From: a candidate division TM6 bacterium GW2011_GWF2_28_16
Lineage (GTDB): Bacteria > Patescibacteriota > Microgenomatia > UBA1400 > PJMF01
Reading direction: 5' to 3'
DNA length: 64,000 bases
Assembly (NCBI GenBank): GCA_001029715.1
Contig: CP011212.1
Location: forward strand, 398,936 to 462,935
Both the position numbers and the translations under genes were made by a program. Numbering within the stretch: position 1 is the stretch's first letter; every line of letters begins with the position of its first letter. This document shows positions 44,886-58,168 of this stretch, in pieces. The notes beneath the pieces were generated by a model. That model was given only the letters and a program-made list of their open reading frames with translations. It ran no database searches and was not told where the DNA came from.

Positions 44886-45755
44886 ATGAATCAATTTGAT
44901 CACTTAGTTTTATTAACTCTTACTTACAGCAGTTGTTTCAACTTTGCTTTAAGTGAGAATGAGGTGGCAAGACGCTTAGTGAAAGGCGAAAAAAAATTGT
45001 TCTTTTCTAGAAATAAAATAAAGGTATCTTTAAAAAAATTGCTAGAGCAATCTTTAATTCAAAGTGATGGCCAATATTTTTATTTAGAAGCAAATAATTT
45101 GTTAAATAGAAAAAGTAAAGCTAAATTTGTAGAAAGTAAAAAAGCTGACGCTAAAGAATTTGTTAAACTAGCTCAAAGGGTTCCTTTTGTCAAAGCAATT
45201 GTTTTGACCGGTTCAACAGCTGTTGGCAATGCAGGCAAGAACGATGATTTAGATTTTATGATTATTTGTCAAAATAATACTTTATGGATTACAAGATTTT
45301 TATTAGTTATTTTAACCAAATTAAAAAACAAAAGACCTGGTATTCAGGAAAGCAGTTCTTGGTGCCTCAATCTTTGGTTAGATGAAAATGATTTGGCGAT
45401 GGGAAAACAGAGAAGAAGTCTTTATGAAGCTTATGAAATTTTACAAATGAAATTTATTTTTGATCGCGGTTCTTACGAGCAACTTTTCCTCAATGCCAAT
45501 CAATGGTTAAAAAAACATCTCTTTTTTTATGATAATTTTAAGTTTGGCAGATATAAAAGAGGAATGTCTTTTTCGCTATTCAATCGATTTATGTTTATAA
45601 TCCAAAAACTTTATCGCCAGATTATTTTTGGTAAAGAAAACTTTTCCCTCAGCCCTACCCAAGCATTTTTTAATGAAATTTCATTTAAGGAAAAGCTGTT
45701 TGGAAGGTTGGAGAAGAAATTAGATGAAATTGGCAAACAAACTATCAGTTTTTGA
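44886..45755 (+). CDS. wHTH + nucleotidyltransferase-domain protein (paralog-type of the 27960 gene)
   Basis: NTase signature AIVLTGSTAVGNAGKNDDLDFMII (G[GS]-x10-DLD). N-terminal ~70 aa look like a winged helix. Confidence 0.5.
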   Translation: MNQFDHLVLLTLTYSSCFNFALSENEVARRLVKGEKKLFFSRNKIKVSLKKLLEQSLIQSDGQYFYLEANNLLNRKSKAKFVESKKADAKEFVKLAQRVPFVKAIVLTGSTAVGNAGKNDDLDFMIICQNNTLWITRFLLVILTKLKNKRPGIQESSSWCLNLWLDENDLAMGKQRRSLYEAYEILQMKFIFDRGSYEQLFLNANQWLKKHLFFYDNFKFGRYKRGMSFSLFNRFMFIIQKLYRQIIFGKENFSLSPTQAFFNEISFKEKLFGRLEKKLDEIGKQTISF

Positions 45756-46560
45756 GAATACTTGTTTAAAAGATAAAAAAAGAAATAGTTATCTCCTTAA
45801 TTTCATTAAATTGACAGTTGAAAGAAGAACAAATGAACTCAGGTTATTGCAATTAAAAAAATTAACTAAAATAGCTCCATTGATAGATTTGGGAAAATTA
45901 ACTGCTGGACTAGTGCATGATATTAGACAGCCATTGTCAGTATTGAGTCTAATTTTGCAAGACGCTAAAAGAAATAAAAACATAATTTCTAACTTGGACC
46001 AGGCCTTTTTAGCAATTGATAAGATTGATGATCTTTCAAAAATGAGTGCCTGCATACTTTTTAACGAATCAGAACTTGAAGTTTTCAATTTAAACTTAGA
46101 AATTAATAAGCTAATCAGTTTATTTGAATACAAATCTAGAACGAAAAAAGTAAAGATTATTTTCAAGCCCAGTAGAGATTATGAGCTTTATGCAGATAGA
46201 AAAAAATTAAATCAAGTTTTGGCTAATTTAATTTTAAATGCATTGGAATCTTATGAAAATTTAGAAAAAAGTGATAAAGACATATTTATTAAATTAATTA
46301 GAAAACCAAGAAATTTACTTATTAAAATTAAAGACTATGGCGTTGGAATAAAAAAAGAAAATTTATCTTTAATATTTGAGCCAAATTTTTCTTCTAAAAT
46401 TAAAGAAGAGGCACTTGGTTTTGGGCTTTATGTTGGTCAAGAAGCAATGGCAAAAGGATATGGCACAAAGATTAAAGTTGAGAGTAAAGATAAATTTGGC
46501 TCAACTTTCACCTTGTTTATTAAAAGTAAATTTGTCTTAGATGAAAATAAAGCTAAGTAA
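45724..46560 (+). CDS. Soluble (no TM, no sensor domain) histidine kinase
   Basis: H-box GLVHDIRQPLSV, N-box LANLILNALES, G1 DYGVGI, G2 GFGLYVGQ. 32-nt overlap with the upstream NTase gene. Confidence 0.7.
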   Translation: MKLANKLSVFENTCLKDKKRNSYLLNFIKLTVERRTNELRLLQLKKLTKIAPLIDLGKLTAGLVHDIRQPLSVLSLILQDAKRNKNIISNLDQAFLAIDKIDDLSKMSACILFNESELEVFNLNLEINKLISLFEYKSRTKKVKIIFKPSRDYELYADRKKLNQVLANLILNALESYENLEKSDKDIFIKLIRKPRNLLIKIKDYGVGIKKENLSLIFEPNFSSKIKEEALGFGLYVGQEAMAKGYGTKIKVESKDKFGSTFTLFIKSKFVLDENKAK

Positions 46561-46741
46561 AATATTTTTATAAAATTACCGCTTGCGCTGATTCTCAATT
46601 CTTGCTACTTTAATTATTGCTGTGGAACATAGTGAAAATCTATGACTGTGCCGCAACGGTAATTCCTTTTTAAGGATTAGTCCGATCTTCAGCAAAAGAG
46701 AAATCTTGACGAGCATCGAGGCTGTATATTTTACTGTCGAT

Positions 46742-46764
46742 GCTCCCTAAAGGGGAGCTTTTTT
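46742..46764 (+). terminator. Intrinsic terminator (gctccc-taaa-gggagc + U6) preceded by a competing hairpin
   Basis: Seen directly. An upstream 9-bp hairpin gagcatcga...tcgatgctc (46711-46745) shares nucleotides with the terminator 5' arm. Confidence 0.45.
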
Positions 46765-46840
46765 GTTCAAAGAACCACGGCTATTAATATTATTAATAGT
46801 TATCTTCGTGGTTAATTTCTGCGAAGTAAGAAAGGTTTTT

Positions 46841-47542
46841 ATGAACACAAAAGCTATCGAAATGGCAGGCAGTATTGGAATTGAGCTAAGCCAAATAAAT
46901 TCAGAATGGACTTCTCTTCAAAGCATTGATTCTTCTTCAATATTAGAGAATGCAGGTAAGGAAGCAGGCATAGAAGATCGTCAGTGGCAAAAATTGCTTT
47001 CTCAAGCTGGTTCTTGGGTGATTGATGGTTTGGATAAAAAGATATTTGAAATACAAAATAAAGTAATTGAGCAAACAACTGCCATTGAGTTAAGAAAAAT
47101 GTTTGGTGTTCCACTTTCATTGCTAGCAATGCCTGTTTTTGTAGAGTTGGCAGGAATGGAATTGGCAGCGAAAATTGATTTGAAAAAAGAAGCCATGATG
47201 ACCTCTCAAATTTGGGAACAAATTAATAACAGAGTTTTATATATGGTTCAACTTTTCTTAGCAGAGCAAATCAATTTGGTCGAAGATGAAGAAAAAGCTC
47301 ATCAGAGTGCTTTGAGTGAATCAAAGAAAGAAGCCGACGGAGTCTCTGGTTTATCAGAAACGGTGGGAGCTGTGGAGAATCAATTTGCTTCAAAGCTGGA
47401 AAAACTAAAAGATAAGAAAGAATCTTTAATAAGTGTTTTCAAAAAGATTGGTGGAGATTTAGTTAATACTGTTGAGAGAGCTTTTGAGACTACTGTTTTT
47501 AGTGCGAGTAGGCAAAGTACTGCTGTTACGGTGATTCAATAA
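46841..47542 (+). CDS. Hypothetical protein (start trimmed to MNTKAIEMAGS after the AAGAAAGG RBS)
   Basis: ORF track frame 46763..47542. Its first 26 codons overlap the terminator hairpin, so the downstream Met is preferred. Confidence 0.4.
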   Translation: MNTKAIEMAGSIGIELSQINSEWTSLQSIDSSSILENAGKEAGIEDRQWQKLLSQAGSWVIDGLDKKIFEIQNKVIEQTTAIELRKMFGVPLSLLAMPVFVELAGMELAAKIDLKKEAMMTSQIWEQINNRVLYMVQLFLAEQINLVEDEEKAHQSALSESKKEADGVSGLSETVGAVENQFASKLEKLKDKKESLISVFKKIGGDLVNTVERAFETTVFSASRQSTAVTVIQ

Positions 47543-47547
47543 ACTTG

Positions 47548-47618
47548 ATCCCGGGCCAGGATTTGAACCTAGAATAATTGATTCAGAGTCAATTGTGATG
47601 CCATTTCACTACCCGGGA
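47548..47618 (-). tRNA. tRNA-Gln (anticodon CUG)
   Basis: Reverse complement TCCCGGGTAGTGAAATGGCATCACAATTGACTCTGAATCAATTATTCTAGGTTCAAATCCTGGCCCGGGA-T. U1-A72, D-arm GTGA/TCAC, anticodon loop CTCTGAA, T-loop TTCAAAT. Confidence 0.8.
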
Positions 47619-47690: not shown

Positions 47691-48356
47691 ATGAAAAAAA
47701 TATTAATTTTAGAAAATGACTGGACTCTTTTATCTTCTTTAAGCGATTTTTTAAAAAAGAAGGGACATTTATCTTATTGTTCTCAATCTATAAAAAGAGC
47801 TGAAGAATTACTCAAAAAAAAGACCTTTGATTTATTTTTATGCGAAAGGGTTTTGCCAGATGGAGATACTTTAGATTTATTAGAAAAAATGAAAGAAAGA
47901 AAGCTTTTTACGAGAGTTTTAGTTTTTAGTTCTAAAAAATCTTTAGTAGATCGGATTGCTACATTAAAATTAGCAGATGATTTTATAGCCAAACCATTTA
48001 ATTTTACGGAATTAACTTTAAAAATAAAGAATATCTTATGTTTAGAAAAAATAAGAGATCAAGATTTTTTTGAAAATTCATTTCTCTCGCTTAAAGAAGA
48101 TAGTTTTTTTACTGATAAAGTAAATCATTTTCGTCCTCAAGAATTAAAAATTTTAGAATGTTTCTCTAAGCATAGAAATTTTGTTATTTCGTATGAAACC
48201 ATATCCTCTTATGTTTGGGGCTATAAAGAAACAATTCCTCTTAAAAAAACAATTAGTGTTTATATTAGAAGAATAAGAATAAAGCTTCCAAATAATTTTA
48301 AGATAGAAACAATTAAAAATAGAGGATATAGATTTATTAATTTAAAGGAAAAATAA
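47691..48356 (+). CDS. OmpR-family response regulator, atypical receiver (Glu in place of the phospho-acceptor Asp)
   Basis: Receiver and winged-helix (IKNRGYRFI) domains. The block aligning to DLILLD reads DLFLCE, and the N-terminal acidic pair is ND. Conserved S/T (VFSS) and K (AKPF) are kept. Confidence 0.6.
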   Translation: MKKILILENDWTLLSSLSDFLKKKGHLSYCSQSIKRAEELLKKKTFDLFLCERVLPDGDTLDLLEKMKERKLFTRVLVFSSKKSLVDRIATLKLADDFIAKPFNFTELTLKIKNILCLEKIRDQDFFENSFLSLKEDSFFTDKVNHFRPQELKILECFSKHRNFVISYETISSYVWGYKETIPLKKTISVYIRRIRIKLPNNFKIETIKNRGYRFINLKEK

Positions 48357-48786
48357 TTCTAAAAGTGGCACCTTTATTTTTTTTAGAAATAATTTCTAAT
48401 TTAGCTTTAAATTCCTTTTCTAAAATTTCATTAATTTGGAACATATTTGAATTGGAGTTTTTTTCTCTAAATAAAAACCCTTTTTGTTTGACTAGTGCTT
48501 TTTCTAAAAAAGACAGGCCAATTCCTCCACCCGTTATACTTATTGAAAGTTTTTTTGAACTTTCGATATTGCTAGTAATTAGAATTACTTTATTTTCTGA
48601 ATTGCTATTTGGATAAGCTTGTTCTGCATTCTTTATTAGTTTGTTTAGTAATTCTTCAAAAATATATTTTTTGCCAGGAATTCTAATTTCATTAGGAAGA
48701 TCAATTTTCAAAATGTAAACAAACTTCTTTTGCTTGATACGTAAAATGTTGGTGGTTTTTATAATTATTTCTCCAACATTTTTCAT
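48337..48786 (-). CDS. Stand-alone HATPase_c (GHKL ATPase) domain protein
   Basis: N-box-like LLNKLIKNAEQAY and G2 ITGGGIGLSF, with no DHp/H-box. 20-nt convergent overlap with the response regulator. Confidence 0.5.
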   Translation of the reverse strand: MKNVGEIIIKTTNILRIKQKKFVYILKIDLPNEIRIPGKKYIFEELLNKLIKNAEQAYPNSNSENKVILITSNIESSKKLSISITGGGIGLSFLEKALVKQKGFLFREKNSNSNMFQINEILEKEFKAKLEIISKKNKGATFRIIFPLN

Positions 48787-48818
48787 GATGGAGAAATTTT
48801 AAAACTTCAACTTAAAAT

Positions 48819-50321
48819 TTATTTAAAATTCTCTTCTTTTATCTCCCAAATCTCTAAACAAGGTGCTCCGTTTGGTCGGCAGAAGCTCTTGAGGAGGTCT
48901 GCTTCGGGGAGTTTCATTTCTAGGCGATGAGAATTAACTATTAATAATTTGTTGTCAAAATCTCTGGCTTTTTGCCAAAACTCAGCGGGAATTTCTCTAA
49001 CTGGTTGACCGATGCCTTCGACGTAAATATTTTCAACGTTTTGATTATGGAGATTGAGCAAGATACCATCTGGGAGAGTGCCAAAATAGCCCTCGGTGGC
49101 GACGGCTACCCTTTGTGTTTCGGCTAGCTCTTGGATATAGGAGACCGATTCTTTGATGCCATGTCCTGAAGCCCAGCTTTCGAGAAACTGTTCTCGATCG
49201 ACTCTGCTTAGTTGTAGCTGATCGACTTTGAAGTAAGATGTGGAGATAAATAAAATCGATGGTAAGATAATTAAAAGCAAAAATAGATACTTGAAGATTT
49301 TCTTGTTGAAATTTTGTAGAGAAATAGTTGCTGAAGCAATAAAAAATAAACTACTGGGTAGGATGTAGCGAGGGTAAATAATTCTTCCGAGCAAAGCCAA
49401 AGGGAAAATAAAAATTAAACCAGATAAAAACAGAACCACTTGTTTACGTCTGGTTTTAGCTGAAAGCGGCAAGGCTAAGAGCAAAATCACTGGTCCCAGA
49501 TAATAAATGAGTTGTTCGTAGAAGAACTGACTGTTTTGCCAAAAAATCGTAAAAATTTCAGTGGACAAAATCACAGAGCGAGGTTGCAAAAAATTCCCTC
49601 CAACAGCAAATAATTGACTGAAAAGCGGTATTATTCTAAAGCTATAAAAAGCCAATCCAGCCAAAAGCAAGCCTACACTAATTTTAATGCTTTTATTAAT
49701 GATTAATTTTAAATTCAATTTTTCTTCAAAAAAAATCGCTAAGTAAAAGACTGGCATGAAGAGAAGAGCTGGGGTTTTACTCATAATGCTTAGTAAGAAA
49801 AAGAAAGCAAAAGGCAAAATTGGCCAGATCTTTTTATTTCTAATTATTAAGAGAGCAAAATAATAAGAAATAATCAGATTGGCAAATAAGAGCCCATCAG
49901 TTAAAGCCATGCGATTATAGAAAAAAGTAAAAGGACTAATAATTGCTAAGAACATGGCCAGATGAGCAGCCTTCTTTTCCTTGATTTTTCTCATGATTAA
50001 GAAAATCATTGAAACACTTACTCCTCCGACTAAAACCGCTAATAACCTAGCCGCGAAAAGCTGGTCAGTAATTAATTTCAAAAAAGGCAACATCAGCCAC
50101 ATCAGTAGAGGGGTTTTACCATCATTCATTGGATAAAAAAGATAGCGATTAAAATCATCAATAATCAGTTGTGACCAGCGAATATAGATTGATTCATCAG
50201 CAAAAACTGGTAAAGAAGTTAAATGAAAAAGATGCAAGGCAAAGTATAAAACAAGCAAAGCTAAAAAGAAAAAAAGAGTTTTATTTTTCACTTCTTCTAT
50301 TAAATAGGAAAAAGGTAGCAC
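48819..50321 (-). CDS. GT-C fold membrane glycosyltransferase (ArnT/PMT-like, GT39/83-type)
   Basis: ~11 TM. First-loop DE motif (FADESIYIRW) typical of the polyprenyl-phosphate-sugar-utilising ArnT/PMT family. Large C-terminal soluble domain. Confidence 0.6.
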   Translation of the reverse strand: MLPFSYLIEEVKNKTLFFFLALLVLYFALHLFHLTSLPVFADESIYIRWSQLIIDDFNRYLFYPMNDGKTPLLMWLMLPFLKLITDQLFAARLLAVLVGGVSVSMIFLIMRKIKEKKAAHLAMFLAIISPFTFFYNRMALTDGLLFANLIISYYFALLIIRNKKIWPILPFAFFFLLSIMSKTPALLFMPVFYLAIFFEEKLNLKLIINKSIKISVGLLLAGLAFYSFRIIPLFSQLFAVGGNFLQPRSVILSTEIFTIFWQNSQFFYEQLIYYLGPVILLLALPLSAKTRRKQVVLFLSGLIFIFPLALLGRIIYPRYILPSSLFFIASATISLQNFNKKIFKYLFLLLIILPSILFISTSYFKVDQLQLSRVDREQFLESWASGHGIKESVSYIQELAETQRVAVATEGYFGTLPDGILLNLHNQNVENIYVEGIGQPVREIPAEFWQKARDFDNKLLIVNSHRLEMKLPEADLLKSFCRPNGAPCLEIWEIKEENFK

Positions 50322-51471
50322 TAAGCAAGAGGTAGAAGCTAGGGATTAGCCAAGTAATGGCTTTTTGCAGGCTTTCCAAACTACTTGAATCCAAGTGAAA
50401 ACTCATCCAAGGCAGATAGTACATCCAAGGTAAATAGCGTAGCAATGAAGAAAAGGAAAAAACGATTAATAAATTTCTGAGAAATTTATTTTTGATTAAA
50501 GGTAAAAAGATTAGAGACCAAAGTAAATACCAAGGTAAAAACTGTTTGGATCTTTCAGTTAGCAATGGAGCGAACATTGCTAAAGCCATTAAATCGTAGG
50601 TAGGGAATTTGCCTAGTCTTCCTAGCCTATTTTTGAGTGCTAAATAAATTATTAGAGGTAACAAAACAATTGTGGCAAATTTAATAGAAATTGATACAGT
50701 AAGCAAAACAGCAATTAAGATAATCTTGAAAATTTTTTTCTTTTGTAAATTAGTCGCTAGATAAACAGCTAATAAAGCTGGAGCCAGCATCCATAGATCA
50801 TTATGAGCACTGCTGAGAATTTCAATTAAAAGTAATGGATTTAAAAAGAATAAAGCTAATTTAAAATAGTTAGCTTTCTTGAAAAACTTTTCACTAATCA
50901 GCAGAGCTAGAATTAAGGAAAGAAAAGCAAATAGTTTAAAAACGATAAAGGTGGAAAGAAATTTCCCCAGTCCAGCTAGATATGGCAACAGTGACAAAGT
51001 AGTCCAACCATAACCATATGGAGCCGGGGTGTGAATGTTGTTCATGAAACGCAACATCGGATCATTAGGAAAATTAATGGCAGTTTGAACATGTGGATTA
51101 GCCCCATACTCGATGATCATTTTTGCATTAAAAATATAATTAAAAAGATCGTGAGAGAGGGCGTTGTAAGAAAAAATTAGGGGCAAACTGACAATGATTA
51201 GAAACTTCCAAAAATTTTGGCGAACATCAAGTTTTAAGCCATGCCAATTTTTAAGGATAAGCAAATAATTAATGAAGATCAAAGTGATTAGAACGCCATA
51301 GAAAATAGTTCTAAAATTTTGTAATGGTAAAACATGTTGCCAAAGATAAGTTTGAAGAGAAACAAAAAAATTAAGATTCAGCAAAGTCAGATTAGGATCG
51401 GTCAAAACAAAAGAAAAAATCGCAAAAACAACAAATAAAAAAAAATAACTTTTAAGTAAAAAACTTTTCAT
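50281..51471 (-). CDS. Polytopic membrane protein, GT-C-like (DUF2029/GT87-like mannosyltransferase candidate)
   Basis: ~10 TM; hydrophobic profile and loop pattern only. Confidence 0.4.
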   Translation of the reverse strand: MKSFLLKSYFFLFVVFAIFSFVLTDPNLTLLNLNFFVSLQTYLWQHVLPLQNFRTIFYGVLITLIFINYLLILKNWHGLKLDVRQNFWKFLIIVSLPLIFSYNALSHDLFNYIFNAKMIIEYGANPHVQTAINFPNDPMLRFMNNIHTPAPYGYGWTTLSLLPYLAGLGKFLSTFIVFKLFAFLSLILALLISEKFFKKANYFKLALFFLNPLLLIEILSSAHNDLWMLAPALLAVYLATNLQKKKIFKIILIAVLLTVSISIKFATIVLLPLIIYLALKNRLGRLGKFPTYDLMALAMFAPLLTERSKQFLPWYLLWSLIFLPLIKNKFLRNLLIVFSFSSLLRYLPWMYYLPWMSFHLDSSSLESLQKAITWLIPSFYLLLSATFFLFNRRSEK

Positions 51472-52223
51472 TTTTTTGGATACTTGCCATTTAATTCAGC
51501 CATTCTGATTCGCAAAATATCAGCAAACATCAAAATGGAATCTCTCACCGGACTAACTCTATTACTTTGGAAGTGTTTCCATAAAATTGGTACCTCCTTC
51601 ATTGCAAACCCATATTTTTTAGCTAAATAGAGTAGCTCTACATCAAAGGCACCAGTAAAAGCATCTTGGCGTTCATTTTTACCAGAGTAAATGTATAGAT
51701 TATTAAACAGTTTTTCAGTAGTTCTCTCTGAAAAAAGCTTAAAGCCACACTGACTATCTTGAATGCCGGAAAGAGCCAATAGCTGAACGAGATAGTTAAA
51801 GCCTCTGCCCATCAGATGGCGATAAAAAGGCTCTTTTTCTCTTTTGGCGCCAATTATTTCTCTAGAGCCAAAAATGACTTCATATTCGCTATTATATTTA
51901 AGCAATTTACGAACTTCTCGAAGCGGAGTTGATTGATCAAAATCAGAGAATAAGCGCCAAGCACCATTGGCTTTGAGCATACCAGACTTAACAGTTGGAC
52001 CTTTACCTTTGTGTTGATTCAAAATTAGTTTAATACGCTCATCTTTTCGACTAAATTCTTCTAGAGCTCTGATGGTTCCATCAGTACTACCATCATCAGT
52101 CAGAATTAGCTCCCAAGATTTTTGATAGTCCCTCAGAAATTGGTAAACTTCTTCAAGAATACCACGTCTAATATTTTTCATTTCATTGTAGGAGGGGAGT
52201 ACAACCGACAAATATGGTTTCAT
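51468..52223 (-). CDS. GT2-family glycosyltransferase (polyprenyl-phosphate sugar synthase-like)
   Basis: VVLPSYNEMKNI, DDGSTDGT, DxD-type GT-A signatures; 251 aa. Confidence 0.7.
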   Translation of the reverse strand: MKPYLSVVLPSYNEMKNIRRGILEEVYQFLRDYQKSWELILTDDGSTDGTIRALEEFSRKDERIKLILNQHKGKGPTVKSGMLKANGAWRLFSDFDQSTPLREVRKLLKYNSEYEVIFGSREIIGAKREKEPFYRHLMGRGFNYLVQLLALSGIQDSQCGFKLFSERTTEKLFNNLYIYSGKNERQDAFTGAFDVELLYLAKKYGFAMKEVPILWKHFQSNRVSPVRDSILMFADILRIRMAELNGKYPKK

Positions 52224-52228
52224 AAAAT

Positions 52229-53773
52229 TTATTTATTATAACTAGTTAAAACACTAATTTCTGGACCATTTTCCATTTGAAAAACTTCGTCAATAGTTCT
52301 ACTTGGAAAAACAACTACTTCATAGAGAGATGTATCGAAAATATCATTTCTAACTTCTTTTTCATCATTAATAATAAAAAGTTTAGTGGCTAATTGATGA
52401 TCTTCAAGTTTGACTATTTTGTTTTCTTTAGTACTTAGAAAATATCGATAACTCATGCCATAAGAATCTTTAGATGGGGAAAAGAGAACAATATTATATT
52501 TTTCATCTTTATTAACTCTTCTATAAATCTCATCGCTAGTTTTACTCATGTCTCCTGGTTTCCAGCCAGCGTCTTTAATTGAATATCTACTTATATTACT
52601 TGAAATAAAAAATGCTAAAAATGGCAAAATAATTGCCAACATTAACCATTTATTTTTAAATTTAGCAAAGAAAAGGCCGTAAAGAATATAAACAAAAGGA
52701 AATAGATAGGCGATGTAGTGTTCATAAACCTCATGCTGGTAAAGACTAATGCCAATTATGCCAGGTAACAAATAAGCTAATAATACGATCTCGCTATCTT
52801 TGATTTTATTTTTATTTTTAACTAAATAAAATACGCTTGAAAGCAAAAGAAGATATAAAAGTGGATAATTTATTTTGTTAGCTGCAAAGCTTGGTTCAAA
52901 AAGAATTTGTGAAGCGCGATTTTTCAGATCGATTGTTACAAATTTAGTAATTGCGCCAAAACCTTCTCGACCCTTTTTTCTTTGTAAGTCAAAGCTCTCT
53001 TCCTTAACTAAAATCTTTGTGAAAGATTTGGCATTTGTGAAGTCATGCTTGTAATCAAAAAGCATGAGGGGAGTTAGAGAAATTATGAAAATAAGAACTG
53101 CTAGCGCAACATGTTTAAAAAACCTTTTTTCTTCGACAAAGAAATGTTTTTTGTTATTTTTAATTTTAGCAATGAGTTGGATTAAGAATACAATTCCTGC
53201 TCCTGATAAAGAGAGCAGAGTTACATAGTGCAATTGAATTAACAGGCTAAAACAAAGTGAAACCAAAAGCCAATATTTTGTATTTTTTTTCCAAGCTAAA
53301 AAAGTGAAATAAAACATCAATAAACTAAAAAATGGGGCGATGTTTGGGTTCCAACTAAAACGGGCAAGATTAACCACGCCGGCCGACAAAGTGAAAAAAA
53401 TTGTCGATATATAAGCAGTTTTTTTGTTAAAAAGTTTTTTAGTAATTTTGAAGAGCAAAAAAACTGTTAGAACACTTAAGCCAGCCACGGCATAAACTGG
53501 CCCAATTGGATTTGGGTAAGACAAGAACAAAAATGGCAACATAAAATAATAATAAAAAGGTCCTAAATACATGTTGCCAATACTAGTTACTGGACCAATA
53601 AAAACAGGATCTTTTTCTTTAAAAATTTGTGAAACTACTAAAGCATCTCTTCCCTGATCTCCTTGAAACATAAAAGTGTTTTTGAGATTAAAGAAACGTA
53701 AGAATATGGCTAAAGCTAAGATAAAAAATAAAAATAAGTATTCTTTTTTTATTTTTCTAATAGAGTCAAACAT
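52229..53773 (-). CDS. GT-C-type membrane protein (paralog of the window-end gene at 63591)
   Basis: ~12 TM. N-terminal FQGDQGRDALVV...IGPVTSIGNMYLGPFYYY aligns with FQFDHGKDSLAV...IGPWTSIPGLYFGPAWYY of the 63591 ORF. Start trimmed to MFDSIRK; the ORF-track frame opens at 53836. Confidence 0.55.
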   Translation of the reverse strand: MFDSIRKIKKEYLFLFFILALAIFLRFFNLKNTFMFQGDQGRDALVVSQIFKEKDPVFIGPVTSIGNMYLGPFYYYFMLPFLFLSYPNPIGPVYAVAGLSVLTVFLLFKITKKLFNKKTAYISTIFFTLSAGVVNLARFSWNPNIAPFFSLLMFYFTFLAWKKNTKYWLLVSLCFSLLIQLHYVTLLSLSGAGIVFLIQLIAKIKNNKKHFFVEEKRFFKHVALAVLIFIISLTPLMLFDYKHDFTNAKSFTKILVKEESFDLQRKKGREGFGAITKFVTIDLKNRASQILFEPSFAANKINYPLLYLLLLSSVFYLVKNKNKIKDSEIVLLAYLLPGIIGISLYQHEVYEHYIAYLFPFVYILYGLFFAKFKNKWLMLAIILPFLAFFISSNISRYSIKDAGWKPGDMSKTSDEIYRRVNKDEKYNIVLFSPSKDSYGMSYRYFLSTKENKIVKLEDHQLATKLFIINDEKEVRNDIFDTSLYEVVVFPSRTIDEVFQMENGPEISVLTSYNK

Positions 53774-53777
53774 GGTT

Positions 53778-54974
53778 TTATTTCTTCTTTTTCCAAACAA
53801 AAGTGCTGTAAGCGAAAAAATTCCAGAACATACCAACTAGAATACCCACCACTGCAGATATAACGCCCGTATCAATTATGTAGTTAACAATTGGTAGAGT
53901 AAATACAGGTTTAAGACCAATGGTAGCAGAAGTAAAGTAAGCAATGGCACTCTGAATTAAGATTGAGCCACCAGAAGATAAATTAAAAGTGAGAAAACTC
54001 ATTGGAATCTGACTGGCTTTTAACTTACGATCCTTAAAAGTCCAAAGATTGCTCCAAATAAAATTCGAGACGATAGCTGTTTCAATGGATAAAAAATTAG
54101 CAATCACGAAGCTTTTTTCTGATGAAAATGGTATTCTCCATAAAGATAAGGCGATTAGTTGAACCAAGGCTCCAAACCCTCCAACAATGGCAAATTTCAC
54201 CACTCTCATCTCTAAAATTTCTTTTATTCTAACCTTCATAAGATATAACAAAGTATTTTTGATATACTCTGGCCCTATTTTACTATTACCTACTACTCGA
54301 TCTTTAAATTCAAAAGGCACTTCTGCAATTTTGAAATTTTTACGCAAGGTTTTATGTAAAAAACCTATCTGAAAAGTATAACCTGAAAAACGATCATCAT
54401 GCAATTCATCTTCTATAGATAGGTATACTTCCTTTTTGATTGCTCGAAAGCCTGTCGTCCAATCTCTGATTGAGAAGTCCAGCATCAAAAAATTAATAAA
54501 AGCGTTTCCGACTATGCTTAAAAATTTACGATGTATGCCCCAGTTTTTAGGAATAGAGCCACCCTTAATGTATCTAGATCCTAAAACAAGGTCGTAGCCC
54601 TGATCAATCTTTTTTAAAAAAGCAGGAATTTTTTTAGGATCATGAGAGAGATCGGCATCAAACTCAAAAACTAAGTCTGCTTTTAATTTAGCAAAAGCAT
54701 GATTCATGCCAATCAAATAAGCCCCACCTAAGCCAGATTTTTTTTTATTGATTAATAATTCAAGAAATCTAAACTTTTTTTGTAAACTTTTCACGAGGAT
54801 TGCTGTGCCATCTGGAGAACTATCGTCAACTACTAAGATTTGCATTTGCCAATTTTTAATGCTTTTAAAAATTTCAGCAAGAGACTGGATGGTCTCTGCA
54901 ATATTACCTTTTTCATTATAAGTGGGAATAATGACAACGGCTTTTTTCATCTTAGTTAGGATTTTTACTTTCAA
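53778..54974 (-). CDS. GT2 glycosyltransferase fused to a C-terminal GtrA-like 4-TM domain
   Basis: N-terminus [13 protein letters not shown]...VDDSSPDGT...FDADLSHDP (DPM/DPG-synthase-like). C-terminus [15 protein letters not shown]... with 4 TM (GtrA family). Confidence 0.7.
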
Positions 54975-55929
54975 ATTCTATATCTTGCGTCACCATCAAA
55001 GTAACCAATTCTTCAAAACTAACTGAAGGCTCCCACTTAAGAATCTTTTTAGCTTTTTCTGGATTGCCAATTAATAAATCAACTTCGGCTGGACGATCAT
55101 ATTTTTTATTATGTTTAACGTATTTTTGATAATCTCCTAGACCTGCAACTCTGAAAGCAATTTCCAAGAATTCTCTGACACTATGAGTTTCACCAGTAGC
55201 AATCACAAAATCATCGGCTTTATCTTGCTGTAACATTAACCACATGGCTTTGACGTAATCTTTGGCATAGCCCCAATCTCTCTTTGCATCTAAATTGCCC
55301 AACTCAATAAAGTCTTGTTTACCTAGTTTAATGCGAGCCACAGCATTACTAATCTTACGTGTTACGAATTCTAGTCCGCGACGAGGCGATTCATGATTGA
55401 AAAGAATACCAGAAACAGCAAACATATCGTATGATTCTCGATAGTTAACCGTAATCCAATGTCCATAGACTTTGGCTACGCCATAAGGTGAGCGGGGGTA
55501 AAAGGGAGTATTCTCATTTTGAGGAACTTCTCTAACTTTGCCAAACATTTCACTTGAGCTAGCTTGATAGAATTTAGCTTTTGGACAAGCCAATCTCATA
55601 GCATCTAAAACTCTGGTTACGCCAATAGCGGTAAATTCTCCAGTTAAAACCGGCTGCTCCCAAGAAGCTTTAACAAAAGACTGAGCAGCTAAATTATAAA
55701 TTTCATCTGGCTGGATATCTTGCAAAGCAAAAGTTAAAGAATGTTGATCAATTAAATCTCCAGAAATAAGTTCAAGGTTTGGATTGTGAATAATAGATTT
55801 AATGCGATCGAAATTTTGAGTACTAGTGCGACGGGTTAGGCCATAAACTTTATAACCTTTTTCAAGCAAAAGCTCGGCTAAATAAGAACCGTCTTGTCCA
55901 GTAATGCCCGTGATAAAAGCTTTTTTCAT
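54952..55929 (-). CDS. gmd: GDP-mannose 4,6-dehydratase
   Basis: [29 protein letters not shown] (Gmd N-terminus), [10 protein letters not shown] (YxxxK). Start ATG overlaps the upstream gene's TGA (ATGA). The ORF-track frame opens at 55995. Confidence 0.85.
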
Positions 55930-56870
55930 ATGTTTTCTCTCCAATAATTTAAAATTCTTTCTAAAGTTTCTTTTAATTGGTGATTTTGTTGCCAACCTAA
56001 ATTTACAATCTTTTCATTGTCGCAAACAAGGCTATGAAGGTCAACTGGGCGAATTTTATTTGGATCTATTTCAACCTTAATTTCTGCCTTAGCTAAGTTA
56101 ATCAATAAATCTAGAACTTCTCGGATGCTGTGCCCTTGACCAGAACCAATATTATAAACTTCATTGTTTTGACCCTTTTCCATAATTAAGATGTAGGCAT
56201 TAACGACATCTTTAACATCGGAAAAATCTCTAATACTATCAAGATTGCCAACTTTGACGGAATCTGCTTCACCTTTTTCGACTTTAACCACCGCGGCTGC
56301 AAGATCAGCAACGACAAAACCAAGGGTCTGTCTTTCGCCAATATGATTAAAAGGTCTTACTCTAACAATATTAAGTCCTTCGCTTTTGACAAAAGAATAA
56401 GCCATCATATCTTGAATCAATTTAGATAAAGCGTATGGATTATCTGGACCAAGAGTAGCTTTTTCATCAATGGCTTGATCATTGTCATTAGCAGCATAAA
56501 CAAGAGCAGTGCTAACATGAAGTAGTTTGGCTTGTGGAGCGTGAGCCTTAATGGCTTCAAGCAGATTTAGTTGAAGATTGGTGTTCATTTCCAAAATGAA
56601 CTTACGTTTTTCGAAACTATCTCCAACACTTGCTAGTGAGGCTAAATGATAGATTTCATCTGGTTTCACTGCTGCAATTAAATCTTGAGTGGCTTGATAG
56701 TCAGTTAAATTAATTTGGTAAATATTTTTTTCATCGACGAATTGTTTGACAAACTCACCCTCATCTCGATAAGAAGTTAAATGAATGTTTCTTTCACCTC
56801 TTTTATAAAGCTCTTCAACTAAATGCGAGGCTACAAAGCCAGTGCCGCCAGTGATTAAAATAGTTTTCAT
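55926..56870 (-). CDS. NAD(P)-dependent SDR reductase/epimerase (GDP-4-keto-6-deoxymannose reductase Rmd- or Fcl-like)
   Basis: [14 protein letters not shown] Rossmann motif, YALSKLIQD (YxxxK). Translationally coupled to gmd. Confidence 0.55.
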
Positions 56871-56887
56871 ATTGAATCCATTTTCCT

Positions 56888-58168
56888 TTATCTTTTACCA
56901 ATGCCCAAATATTGATATTGCCAATTTTTAACTCTTTCTGGATTAAATTGATTACGACAGTCAATGAAAGTTTGTTTTTTGTTATTTTTAACTTTAGAAA
57001 AATCAAAACTAATAATCTCTGGCCATTCAACTACTGCCATAATGATGTCAGCATTTTCACAAGCTTCTTCAATCGAGGAAAATTGTTGATGATTGTCGGT
57101 TGCTAGAGGATTATATTTAGCCATTGGATCGTAGCTTCTGACTTTAGCTTTTTTATCGCTTAAAAATGGAATAATTTTTGTCGACGGAGCTTCTCTCATA
57201 TCGTCAGTGTTAGGTTTAAAAGATAAACCCAAGATGGCAATAGTTTTGTCTTTGAAGCCACCCGACTCTTCAGCAAATTTCTTTAGAAGTCTGAAGATGC
57301 GATCTTTATTGATTTCATCAACGCGATTGAGTAAATTACCACTTTCCCCAACAGTGCGTGAATAAGCGGCCAATTCCTTAACATCTTTAGGGAAGCAAGA
57401 ACCCCCATAGCCTAAACCTGGATACCAGTAGTGTTGGCCAATTCTTTTATCGTAACCAATAGCCTTAATGACTTCTTCAATATCAGCGCCATTTTTTTCA
57501 CAAAGATTAGCAACTTCATTAATAAAAGTAATACGAGTAGCCAAATAAGAGTTGGCAGTGTATTTGGCCATTTGTGCCGAAGCGACTTTACAATGAACAA
57601 CTGGAGCTTTAAGCGTTTTGTGCAATTCTTCTAATTTTGTAAAGACGAAGTCATCTTCAGCACCAATGACAATTCTGTCAGGATTAAGAGTGTCAAAAAC
57701 AGCTGAGCCTTCTCTTAAGAATTCTGGTAAAGAAGCACCATAGAATTTAGTTGATATTTTTTCCTTGATGACAGAGATCACTTTTTCTAAAGTTCCTGGA
57801 GGAACAGTTGATTTAATGACTACAATGGCATTTTCTTTAAGATAGGGAGCAAGCGATTCTGCACTAGCTAAGACGTATTTTAAGTCAGCTGTGCCGTCTG
57901 AAGCCGATGGAGTTCCAACAGCGATAATGATGATTTCTGCCTCATTGATGGCTTCTTGATAAGAAGTGGTAAAACGTAATTTTCCTTTAGCTTGCTGTTC
58001 TAGCAATAATTCCTGCAAATCTGGTTCATAGAAAGGCACTTGGCCTTTTTCTAAGAGTTTAATTTTATTTTCATCAATATCTAAACCAATGACTTGGTTT
58101 CCGAAAGAGGCGTAGACTGCAGCTGAGACAACCCCTACGAAACCAGTGCCAATAACTGTTACTTTCAT
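56888..58168 (-). CDS. ugd: UDP-glucose/GDP-mannose 6-dehydrogenase family enzyme
   Basis: MKVTVIGTGFVGVVSA (NAD binding) and catalytic GGSCFPKD. Confidence 0.8.
   Translation of the reverse strand: MKVTVIGTGFVGVVSAAVYASFGNQVIGLDIDENKIKLLEKGQVPFYEPDLQELLLEQQAKGKLRFTTSYQEAINEAEIIIIAVGTPSASDGTADLKYVLASAESLAPYLKENAIVVIKSTVPPGTLEKVISVIKEKISTKFYGASLPEFLREGSAVFDTLNPDRIVIGAEDDFVFTKLEELHKTLKAPVVHCKVASAQMAKYTANSYLATRITFINEVANLCEKNGADIEEVIKAIGYDKRIGQHYWYPGLGYGGSCFPKDVKELAAYSRTVGESGNLLNRVDEINKDRIFRLLKKFAEESGGFKDKTIAILGLSFKPNTDDMREAPSTKIIPFLSDKKAKVRSYDPMAKYNPLATDNHQQFSSIEEACENADIIMAVVEWPEIISFDFSKVKNNKKQTFIDCRNQFNPERVKNWQYQYLGIGKR

What the first reader, a model, noticed from the sequence alone, without database searches (positions are those of the whole stretch)
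47691..48786. Response regulator with Glu at the phospho-acceptor position, convergently overlapping an orphan HATPase-only protein
In the receiver domain, the block that normally reads DLILLD with a phospho-accepting terminal Asp reads DLFLCE. The N-terminal acidic pair is N-D rather than D-D. The downstream conserved Ser/Thr and Lys are retained. Asp-to-Glu at this site is the textbook phosphomimetic substitution, so this OmpR-type regulator is probably phosphorylation-independent or constitutively active, an atypical RR. The alignment was done by eye. Its 3' end overlaps by 20 nt a convergent gene encoding only a GHKL/HATPase_c domain with N- and G-boxes but no H-box. That domain could act as an anti-sigma-like ATPase or a split kinase module. 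Together with the soluble HK 1.8 kb upstream, this is a non-canonical signalling cluster.
Basis: partly seen in the sequence, partly recalled or inferred. Interest (0 to 1): 0.55.

Follow-up and report, generated by a model that had tools for sequence, protein, structure and literature searches.

The report
Asp-less regulator with kinase relic
An OmpR-type response regulator in a small Patescibacteria (Pacebacteria-like) genome carries Glu instead of its phosphorylatable Asp, and the small gene overlapping its end is the cut-down, catalytically degenerate remnant of its former partner kinase. Such 'pseudo' signalling proteins are a known kind, but here both partners have clearly decayed together and are still kept.

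Summary
ORF 47691-48356(+) is an OmpR/PhoB-family regulator with Glu52 at the phospho-acceptor column. The metal-binding pair reads E8-N9, not 'N-D'. S80, F98 and K101 are kept. Across 43 orthologue clusters from Pacebacteria-like MAGs, Glu is fixed in 41 and the second acidic residue is never acidic. ORF 48337-48786(-) overlaps it by 20 nt, is present in every orthologous locus, is under purifying selection and has a histidine-kinase CA fold. It is not an anti-sigma-like ATPase: its N-box Asn and G1 Asp vary across the family and G2 is absent. It is homologous (hhalign 99.4%) to the C-terminal two-thirds of ~210-260-aa minimal kinases (H-box plus intact ATP site) found in the same convergent slot in outgroup genomes. 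In those genomes the regulator is canonical (3 of 3). Wherever the partner is degenerate, the regulator's pocket is degenerate too. So this is a two-component pair that lost phosphotransfer on both sides and was retained. The regulator is most likely phosphorylation-independent, like ChxR and CosR. The relic's role is inferred only. The upstream kinase is a separate unit, separated from the regulator by a B12-riboswitch-controlled gene and a tRNA. Glu-for-Asp is the commonest pseudo-receiver substitution, so interest is moderate.

The parts
47691..48356 (+). OmpR/PhoB-family response regulator (221 aa) with a pseudo-receiver domain. Signature residues: E8 (47712-47714), N9 (47715-47717), E52 (47844-47846), S80 (47928-47930), F98 (47982-47984), K101 (47991-47993). 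The winged-helix DNA-binding domain covers about residues 146-215 (48126-48335).
   Evidence: Pfam Response_reg plus Trans_reg_C. PDB alignments. Orthologue alignments. AF2 model with pLDDT 84.8 and Foldseek hits to CosR, VanR, KdpE and PmrA. Codon coordinates.
48337..48786 (-). Stand-alone 149-aa protein with a histidine-kinase CA (Bergerat) fold. No DHp/H-box, and a degenerate ATP site (N53 kept here, G86 in place of the G1 Asp, no G2). It is a relic of the regulator's minimal partner kinase and the last gene of the minus-strand glycosyltransferase operon.
   Evidence: Present and convergent in 12 of 12 orthologous loci. AF2 plus Foldseek. hhalign 99.4% to residues 67-215 of the L016 minimal HK. 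Exhaustive profile search. dN/dS 0.23-0.69. Motif counts.
48337..48356 (.). 20-nt convergent overlap of the two 3' ends. Orthologous and outgroup loci show the same arrangement with overlaps of 8-40 nt.
48819..54974 (-). Envelope glycosylation genes immediately upstream of, and co-directional with, the CA-only gene: PMT/PMT_2 (48819-50321), MptA_B family (50281-51471), GT2 (51468-52223), PMT_2 (52229-53836), GT2/GtrA (53778-54974). Further minus-strand ORFs continue to about 58168.
   Evidence: ORF lists. Pfam labels come from the syntenic genes in L001/L002. The same neighbours occur in the outgroup loci.
45724..46560 (+). Soluble 278-aa histidine kinase with His65 (45916-45918) and intact N, G1, F and G2 boxes. 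Orthologues are mostly 419-462 aa with a multi-pass membrane N-terminus. Four of 10 lineages lack the His. It is a separate transcription unit from the regulator.
   Evidence: Pfam and NCBIfam. Orthologue alignments and motif table. Terminator. Orthologous large HK in outgroup L024.
46597..46768 (+). AdoCbl (B12) riboswitch aptamer (46597-46756) with a terminator-like hairpin (46742-46768). It lies between the kinase and the unknown gene. It is context only, not part of the signalling pair.
   Evidence: Rfam RF01482, 55.6 bits against a gathering score of 50. Terminator scan. Conserved in 7 orthologous loci.
46841..47542 (+). Conserved 233-aa protein of unknown function downstream of the riboswitch (context).
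   Evidence: Alignments. No Pfam, NCBIfam or PDB match. Start codon.
47547..47618 (-). tRNA-Gln (CTG) between the unknown gene and the regulator. It makes the regulator its own transcription unit.
   Evidence: ARAGORN. Rfam tRNA, 62.8 bits. Conserved in all orthologous loci.

Best explanation
The two overlapping genes are the remains of a once-canonical two-component pair: an OmpR/PhoB regulator and a minimal soluble histidine kinase encoded convergently at the end of an envelope-glycosylation operon. In this Pacebacteria-like clade, phosphotransfer was lost on both sides.

Shown: the regulator lost the Mg-binding Asp (now N9) and the acceptor Asp (now E52). It kept its fold, the switch residues S80/F98/K101 and a highly conserved winged-helix domain. 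The kinase lost its DHp/His domain and the residues that bind ATP, leaving a ~150-aa CA-fold protein that is still under purifying selection.

Inferred: the regulator acts as a phosphorylation-independent DNA-binding transcription factor. The fixed Glu carboxylate and retained Lys/Ser/Phe would hold the receiver in an active-like state, as in ChxR.

More speculative: the kinase relic is kept for a non-catalytic role, most plausibly binding the regulator or the neighbouring large kinase. Its dosage would be tied to the glycosyltransferase operon it terminates.
For: 1. E52 lies on the acceptor Asp column in sequence and in the model.
2. Across 43 clusters, Glu is present in 41, the second acidic residue is non-acidic in all 43, and K101, S80 and F98 are retained.
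3. The DNA-binding domain is far more conserved than the receiver: 23 invariant columns against 8.
4. RR dN/dS is 0.07-0.29.
5. The CA-only ORF is present and convergent in 12 of 12 loci and has a CA fold.
6. Its N-box Asn, G1 Asp and G2 are not conserved.
7. Its dN/dS is 0.23-0.69.
8. It is homologous (hhalign 99.4%, E 3e-21) to residues 67-215 of a syntenic 220-aa kinase with HisKA plus HATPase_c.
9. The exhaustive profile search shows the family adjoins dozens of 207-275-aa proteins whose match is C-terminal; the nine whose sequences were read are eight minimal kinases with intact motifs and one degenerate form (P0082).
10. P0082 is an intermediate: it keeps DHp length but has lost His, N, G1 and G2.
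11. Partner state tracks regulator state. An intact small HK goes with a canonical Asp regulator in 3 of 3 loci (L016, L025, L028). A degenerate partner goes with a degenerate pocket in L024, L015, L026 and all clade loci.
12. Precedents: Glu is the commonest replacement of the phospho-Asp (26% of ALRs), and ChxR carries it and is constitutively active (PMC4395418, PMC3960148). C. jejuni CosR, the closest solved structure, lost its kinase and its phosphorylatability (PMC10936212).
Against: 1. No experiment exists. 'Constitutively active' and any binding role of the relic rest on analogy.
2. The ALR survey itself notes that Asp-to-Glu alone often does not activate receivers (PMC4395418).
3. The degenerate forms may derive from only one or two evolutionary events. 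The NJ tree gives a bootstrap of 0.38 for the main clade, with L024 separate. The partner/regulator correlation therefore has little statistical weight.
4. dS is close to saturation, so the dN/dS values are rough.
5. An intact kinase with His sits 1.1 kb upstream in this genome and is syntenic in outgroups. Some residual phospho-signalling is therefore not excluded.
6. One clade member has Asp (P0040) and one has Gly (P0042) at the acceptor, so Glu is not strictly required.
Confidence: 0.65

Rival explanations
1. The regulator is still a phospho-regulated protein. The neighbouring large kinase, which has His65 and an intact ATP site in this genome, would modify it on Glu52 or another residue, or control it through ATP-dependent binding.
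For: The large kinase is syntenic with the regulator in the clade and in outgroups. All of its ATP-binding boxes are conserved in 10 of 10 lineages. The regulator keeps E8, S80, F98 and K101. The 64-kb window contains no other regulator for this kinase.
Against: The Mg-binding Asp is absent in 43 of 43 clusters. No bacterial receiver is known to signal through glutamyl phosphate (PMC4395418). The large kinase has lost its own His in 4 of 10 lineages (R, N, N, Q) although its regulator neighbour is unchanged. It is a separate transcription unit. The rest of the ~0.75-Mb genome was not searched for other regulators.
Confidence: 0.12
2. The CA-only ORF is a functionless, decaying remnant (a pseudogene in progress), and only the regulator matters.
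For: It evolves faster than the regulator. It has lost every catalytic hallmark. Pfam does not recognise it at threshold. Its length varies from 133 to 168 aa, with internal deletions in some members.
Against: It is an intact ORF in all 12 orthologous loci and in the divergent loci L015 and L026; family representatives go down to 29% identity to the window copy. dN/dS is below 1 in every pair listed (the 14 least diverged at synonymous sites). It has 11 invariant core residues and a confident AF2 fold. The overlapping arrangement is conserved.
Confidence: 0.1
3. One reading: the CA-only protein is an active GHKL enzyme. It would be either an anti-sigma-type Ser kinase/ATPase or a trans-acting catalytic module for a split kinase.
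For: The window copy retains the N-box Asn and a glycine-rich G1-like loop. Its size matches SpoIIAB/RsbW (~146 aa). There is a weak TIGR01925 hit, E 0.0077.
Against: The N-box Asn is N10/K5/Q2/R2 and the G1 Asp column is D5 of 19. There are no G2 glycines, and the lid region is disordered in the model. TIGR01925 scores 16 bits against a cut-off of 135. The top 50 structural neighbours are all HK CA domains. No STAS or sigma gene was found among the ORFs examined in 44-52 kb. The upstream kinase has its own intact CA domain.
Confidence: 0.05

Closest known systems
ChxR (Chlamydia trachomatis), an atypical OmpR/PhoB response regulator
   Same: Same family architecture (REC plus winged helix). 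Glu at the phospho-acceptor position and loss of other active-site residues. ChxR dimerises, binds DNA and activates transcription without phosphorylation (PMC4395418, PMC3960148).
   Different: Not a close sequence relative: ChxR was not among the 60 best PDB sequence hits. ChxR is an orphan and lacks part of the pocket secondary structure. Here the beta3-alpha3 loop has canonical length, and a relic of the partner kinase is retained next to the gene.
CosR (Campylobacter jejuni; PDB 8UUZ, 8UVK, 8UVX)
   Same: Closest solved structure by sequence (E 4.6e-19) and by fold. It is an OmpR/PhoB regulator whose receiver can no longer be phosphorylated. Its kinase gene cosS is present in C. fetus but lost in C. 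jejuni, so acceptor loss and kinase loss go together (PMC10936212).
   Different: 27% identity. In CosR the kinase gene disappeared entirely. Here it was trimmed to a CA-only protein and kept. The residue at the acceptor column differs: not Glu in CosR.
HP1043/HsrA (Helicobacter pylori; PDB 2HQR)
   Same: Atypical, phosphorylation-independent OmpR/PhoB regulator. It is recovered by both the sequence and the fold searches (PMC4395418).
   Different: Orphan and essential, with a shortened pocket region. It has no Glu phosphomimic and no kinase relic.
DivL (Caulobacter crescentus) and other pseudo-histidine kinases
   Same: A histidine-kinase fold that has lost catalysis and is retained for a binding or sensing role within a two-component network (PMC4211667, PMC12632262).
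   Different: DivL keeps PAS, DHp and CA domains and docks its regulator through the DHp. Its CA domain is dispensable. Here the DHp is the part that was lost and only the CA fold remains, so the DivL docking mode cannot apply.
CmrT of the C. difficile CmrRST system, a non-orphan pseudo-receiver
   Same: A pseudo-receiver OmpR-type regulator that stays genetically linked to kinase genes. Only CmrT and FrzS among 20 characterised atypical regulators are not orphans (PMC12632262).
   Different: CmrT sits in an operon with an otherwise normal kinase/regulator pair. Here the linked small kinase is itself degenerate, and the gene pair is convergent and overlapping.
SpoIIAB/RsbW anti-sigma factor kinases (stand-alone GHKL domains)
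   Same: Similar size, and a single stand-alone Bergerat-fold domain.
   Different: They conserve the N, G1 and G2 boxes and work with STAS and sigma partners. The match here is 16 bits against a cut-off of 135, and the ATP site is degenerate.

Membership tests
OmpR/PhoB-family response regulator | N-terminal receiver (CheY-like) domain plus C-terminal winged-helix Trans_reg_C domain | tested here: met
   Pfam PF00072 at 51.0 bits (cut-off 30.2) and PF00486 at 51.8 bits (cut-off 26.2). AF2 plus Foldseek hit full-length CosR, VanR, KdpE and PmrA.
Canonical (phosphorylatable) receiver domain | Acceptor Asp at the end of beta3 | tested here: not met
   E52 aligns with PmrA D51. Glu in 41 of 43 family clusters.
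Canonical (phosphorylatable) receiver domain | Two acidic residues after beta1 that bind Mg2+ (CheY D12/D13; PhoB E9/D10) | tested here: not met
   The pair is E8-N9. The second position is non-acidic in 43 of 43 clusters.
Canonical (phosphorylatable) receiver domain | Conserved Thr/Ser, aromatic switch residue and Lys | tested here: met
   S80 in 40/43, F98 in 41/43, K101 in 43/43.
Pseudo-receiver / aspartate-less receiver (ALR) | Recognised computationally as a receiver but lacking residues needed for phosphotransfer, in particular the acceptor Asp | tested here: met
   Definitions in PMC4395418 and PMC12632262.
Pseudo-receiver / aspartate-less receiver (ALR) | Activity independent of phosphorylation | not testable with these tools
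   Requires biochemistry: Phos-tag, and DNA binding or dimerisation without a phosphodonor.
Histidine-kinase catalytic (CA, HATPase_c) domain | Bergerat alpha/beta sandwich fold homologous to HK CA domains | tested here: met
   AF2 pLDDT 80.3. The Foldseek top 50 are all HK CA domains (E down to 2.8e-8, TM 0.59-0.74). hhalign 99.4% to a bona fide minimal HK.
Histidine-kinase catalytic (CA, HATPase_c) domain | Pfam HATPase_c at or above the gathering score | tested here: not met
   16.8 bits against 26.4. Only sub-threshold hits in 10 of 19 members.
Histidine-kinase catalytic (CA, HATPase_c) domain | Conserved ATP-binding N-box Asn, G1 DxGxG and G2 GxGxG | tested here: not met
   N-box N10/K5/Q2/R2. 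G1 Asp column D in 5 of 19 (Gly in the window copy). G2 glycines absent.
Functional histidine kinase | DHp dimerisation domain with the phospho-accepting His | tested here: not met
   The ORF begins at the CA domain. There is an in-frame stop 15 nt upstream and only 32 nt to the previous gene. Outgroup homologues have the DHp and His.
SpoIIAB/RsbW-type anti-sigma factor kinase | Match to the family model, a conserved ATP site, and STAS or sigma partners nearby | tested here: not met
   TIGR01925 scores 16.1 bits against a cut-off of 135. The ATP site is degenerate. The neighbours are glycosyltransferases and the regulator.

The most novel reading that the evidence does not exclude
The regulator and the CA-only relic could still form a working, phosphate-free signalling module. 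The former kinase's catalytic domain, co-expressed with the envelope-glycosylation operon, would bind the Glu-locked receiver and set its DNA-binding activity. The neighbouring large kinase, which keeps ATP binding even where its His is lost, would supply the sensory input by protein-protein contact. That would be a natural example of how pseudo-receivers are switched, a mechanism the field describes as unknown. The outgroup genomes would preserve a graded series running from intact kinase, through a His-less full-length pseudokinase, to the CA-only form.
Probability: 0.2. Interest if true: 0.6.

Novelty: new variant of a known kind. Interest (0 to 1): 0.4.

Why it matters
Pseudo-receivers make up about 2% of receiver domains. 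Nearly all studied examples are orphans, so how they are controlled is largely unknown (PMC12632262). This locus offers a non-orphan case in which the cognate kinase can be identified by synteny and homology. Both partners can be seen losing phosphotransfer chemistry in step, and intact, half-decayed and fully reduced versions are available in related genomes for comparison. It also shows that minimal genomes of uncultivated Patescibacteria keep such 'dead' signalling proteins under selection, which argues for a non-catalytic function. On the cautionary side, the headline feature (Glu for Asp) is the single most common pseudo-receiver substitution and is not surprising in itself.

Tried and rejected
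1. A word-indexed homology search with the CA-only protein alone found only 2 relatives. Orthologues had to be recovered through synteny, a family profile and the exhaustive search.
3. The metagenome scan with the regulator profile returned only 7 clade members and no new outgroups.
4. The contigs carrying P0043 and P0083 had no retrievable DNA. L027 was too short to show the regulator's N-terminus.
5. The sigma-70 promoter scan was not above chance: 49 found against 44.7 expected.
6. The conserved block upstream of the regulator turned out to be mostly a tRNA-Gln gene. The remaining conserved motif CTGATTATATAACAAA does not recur in the window above chance: 2 matches against 2.45 expected. 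No candidate binding site was found, and the regulator's target genes remain unknown.
7. The unknown 233-aa protein gave no significant Pfam, NCBIfam or PDB-profile match. The 228-aa neighbour in L028 is unrelated to it.
8. Treating the kinase, unknown gene and regulator as one operon was rejected because of the riboswitch/terminator and the opposite-strand tRNA.
9. A literature search for stand-alone CA relics paired with pseudo-receivers found nothing in the held library. That library is incomplete, so this is not proof of novelty.
Full report
**What is at the coordinates**

The window has ORF 47691-48356(+), 221 aa, and ORF 48337-48786(-), 149 aa. They converge and share 20 nt.
- The plus-strand protein matches Pfam Response_reg (E 1.9e-13) and Trans_reg_C (E 8.5e-14). 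Its best NCBIfam similarities are PhoB and PmrA, far below their equivalog cut-offs. It is therefore an OmpR/PhoB-family regulator of no named orthologous group.
- The minus-strand protein reaches only 16.8 bits on HATPase_c, against a cut-off of 26.4.
- A near-identical copy lies on a 751-kb metagenomic contig, and NCBI labels its protein as hypothetical from a 'Patescibacteria group bacterium'.
- Orthologous loci come from MAGs named Candidatus Pacebacteria or Parcubacteria group.

**The receiver active site**

phmmer against PDB sequences aligns 'FDLFLCERVLPDGD' with PmrA/BasR 'YSLIVLDLGLPDED'. This puts E52 on the acceptor Asp51. It also aligns 'ILILENDW' with 'ILVIEDDA'.
- By comparison with BasR E7-D8 (equated with PhoB E9-D10 from the PhoB sequence as I recall it, not from a tool alignment), the metal-binding pair is E8-N9 and D10 is the following residue.
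- S80 (Thr/Ser position), F98 (aromatic switch) and K101 are present.
- In an AF2 model (receiver pLDDT >90) these residues occupy the canonical places: N9 in the beta1-alpha1 loop, E52 at the end of beta3, S80 at the end of beta4, K101 after beta5. The receiver superposes on PmrA/PhoP receivers at 1.0-1.4 A.

**Is the substitution fixed?**

The regulator has 42 cluster representatives at 43% identity or more, plus more distant relatives. Over the 43 family sequences:

| Position | Residues found |
|---|---|
| Acceptor (E52) | Glu 41, Asp 1 (P0040), Gly 1 (P0042) |
| Second acidic (N9) | never acidic: N 29, S 6, T 2, H 2, others 4 |
| First acidic (E8) | E/D in 40 |
| S80 | 40 of 43 |
| F98 | 41 of 43 |
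| K101 | 43 of 43 |

The winged-helix domain carries 23 invariant columns, against 8 in the longer receiver. dN/dS for the regulator is 0.07-0.29.

**The CA-only protein is a real gene with a kinase catalytic fold**

- A convergent ORF of 133-164 aa overlaps the regulator's 3' end by 14-31 nt in all 12 orthologous loci examined.
- dN/dS is 0.23-0.69. This is rough because dS is near saturation, but it is below 1 in every pair listed (the 14 least diverged at synonymous sites). It is also higher than for the regulator.
- An AF2 model (pLDDT 80.3, pTM 0.75) is an alpha/beta sandwich with a disordered loop where the ATP lid would be. Its 50 best Foldseek hits in PDB are all histidine-kinase CA domains, including ThkA, KinB, YycG and HK853.
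- The ORF cannot extend upstream. An in-frame TAA lies 15 nt before its ATG, and the preceding gene ends 32 nt away. There is therefore no DHp/H-box.
- Across 19 family members, the ATP-binding N-box Asn is N10/K5/Q2/R2. The G1 Asp column is D in only 5 (Gly in the window copy). The G2 glycines are absent.
- This argues against an ATPase, a kinase or an anti-sigma-like enzyme. The SpoIIAB model scores 16 bits against a cut-off of 135.

**Where the CA-only protein came from**

The more distant regulator P0044 (34% identity) has a canonical 'VVDDN' motif and an acceptor Asp. It sits in the same synteny: regulator, convergent overlapping partner, then PMT, MptA_B, GT2, PMT_2 and GT2/GtrA.
- Its partner is a 220-aa protein with HisKA (residues 13-62, 'LLHNLNQPL'), HATPase_c (E 3.2e-12) and intact N, G1 and G2 boxes.
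- The CA-only family profile aligns with residues 67-215 of this kinase at hhalign probability 99.4%, E 3e-21.
- An exhaustive HMMER search of 1.84 billion representatives found about 15 CA-only proteins first. After them came dozens of 207-275-aa proteins in which the match is strictly C-terminal. The eight nearest of these with intact motifs have an H-box, 'NNA.E.Y', 'DGG.G' and 'G.GL'.
- One of them, P0082 (219 aa), keeps the N-terminal length but has Gln for His and no N, G1 or G2 residues. It is an apparent intermediate.

**Co-degeneration of the two partners**

Gene contexts and regulator alignments give the following:

| Locus | Convergent partner | Regulator acidic motif | Acceptor |
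|---|---|---|---|
| L016, L025, L028 | intact small kinase | canonical | Asp |
| L024 | P0082 pseudokinase (DHp length kept) | 'LTKDE' | Asp |
| L015 | CA-only | 'LAND' | Asp |
| L026 | CA-only | 'LDQDQ' | Glu |
| all clade loci | CA-only | E/D plus a non-acidic residue | Glu |

- The common denominator of the degenerate regulators is loss of the second acidic residue. Asp-to-Glu accompanies it in most.
- A neighbour-joining tree nests the Glu/CA-only clade among canonical pairs. It places L024 separately and makes the Asp of L015/P0040 a secondary change. Support is weak (bootstrap 0.38).
- The correlation may therefore reflect only one or two events.

**The upstream kinase and the 'cluster'**

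The 278-aa kinase at 45724-46560 has His65 and intact N, G1, F and G2 boxes. It lacks the membrane N-terminus that its 419-462-aa orthologues have.
- It is syntenic in the clade, and a clear orthologue lies near the regulator in the outgroup L024; L025 also has a larger kinase in that position, whose orthology was not checked.
- In 4 of 10 distinct lineages its phospho-His is replaced by R, N, N or Q, while every ATP-binding box is kept.
- In the window it is not in an operon with the regulator. An AdoCbl riboswitch (46597-46756) with a terminator hairpin, a conserved unknown gene (46841-47542) and a minus-strand tRNA-Gln (47547-47618) lie between them.
- An HMM scan found no other regulator or kinase in the 64-kb window.

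**Most likely mechanism**

Shown:
- The canonical phosphotransfer chemistry is absent from the regulator.
- The cognate small kinase has lost its phosphodonor domain and its ATP site.
- Both genes are maintained by selection.

Inferred from established knowledge:
- Glu at the acceptor can mimic aspartyl phosphate (NtrC D54E and others). The Glu-bearing ChxR dimerises, binds DNA and activates transcription without phosphorylation. The same survey warns that Glu alone is often insufficient (PMC4395418, PMC3960148).
- The closest solved relative, C. jejuni CosR, shows the same evolutionary logic of kinase loss together with loss of phosphorylatability (PMC10936212).
- I therefore favour a phosphorylation-independent transcription factor.

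Speculative:
- The relic has a non-catalytic role, plausibly as a binding partner.
- It is the last gene of the envelope-glycosylation operon, so its level would follow that operon's expression.
- No binding site or target could be identified.

**Comparison with what is known, and novelty**

- About 2% of receivers lack the Asp. Glu is the most frequent replacement, at 26% of such receivers (PMC12632262, PMC4395418). The regulator alone is a new member of a known kind.
- Less ordinary is that it is not an orphan. Only 2 of 20 characterised atypical regulators are non-orphans (PMC12632262).
- Its partner survives as a DHp-less CA domain. [quoted passage not shown]
- Related genomes preserve the intact and intermediate states.
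- I found no description of such a pair in the searchable library, which is incomplete.
- I rate it a new variant of a known kind, of moderate interest.

Noticed in passing
window 46597-46768 (+) and 46841-47542 (+): A full-length AdoCbl (B12) riboswitch (RF01482, 55.6 bits against a gathering score of 50) with a terminator hairpin lies directly upstream of a conserved 233-aa protein. That protein has no significant Pfam, NCBIfam or PDB match. The riboswitch-gene pairing recurs in 7 orthologous loci (as AdoCbl-II in L011). This is an uncharacterised B12-regulated protein family in Pacebacteria-like genomes.
   Followed up: partly
L001:3591-4850, L004:4574-5869, L009:4565-5860, L022:2069-3367 (orthologues of window 45724-46560): The large kinase next to the regulator has lost its phospho-accepting His in 4 of 10 lineages (N, N, Q, R). 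It keeps the N, G1, F and G2 ATP-binding boxes in all of them. These are pseudo-kinases with an apparently intact nucleotide site.
   Followed up: partly
window 45724-46560 (+): This genome's copy of the large kinase is 278 aa and lacks the ~140-180-residue multi-pass membrane N-terminus present in most orthologues (419-462 aa). L013 has a 295-aa form with a much shorter N-terminal region. The gene overlaps the preceding nucleotidyltransferase-like gene by 32 nt.
   Followed up: partly
window 47547-47618 (-): A tRNA-Gln (CTG) sits between the B12-regulated gene and the regulator and is conserved in position in all orthologous loci. The 72 nt between it and the regulator start codon contain a strongly conserved AT-rich block (…AAATTTTAAGATTTTTTTAT…CTGATTATATAACAAA), probably holding divergent promoters.
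   Followed up: partly
L007:3370-5872 (the 210-aa gene also at about L011:5227-5859): In L007, a 619-aa protein with no Pfam match and a second, 210-aa OmpR-type protein are inserted between the large kinase and the riboswitch; L011 carries the 210-aa gene too, and its wider insertion was not examined. The 210-aa protein has a strongly degenerate receiver (Response_reg only 22.9 bits; 'LILLNYSD' at the acceptor region).
   Followed up: no
window 48337-58168 (-); L016, L024, L025, L026, L028: In this lineage the small kinase is always the last gene of a PMT/MptA_B/GT2/GtrA envelope-glycosylation gene string, and it converges on and overlaps the regulator gene by 8-40 nt. This holds even where the pair is canonical. 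It is an unusual layout for a two-component pair, which is normally co-directional in one operon.
   Followed up: partly
P0045 (240 aa, distant relative): A distant OmpR-type relative (28% identity) independently shows 'LVVEPD' and 'LVVCEAKLP', that is Glu at the acceptor and Pro at the second acidic position.
   Followed up: no
L003, L004, L007, L009 record titles: Several MAGs carrying this clearly Patescibacteria-type locus are titled 'uncultured Pseudomonadales bacterium' in their public records. This looks like mislabelled taxonomy.
   Followed up: no
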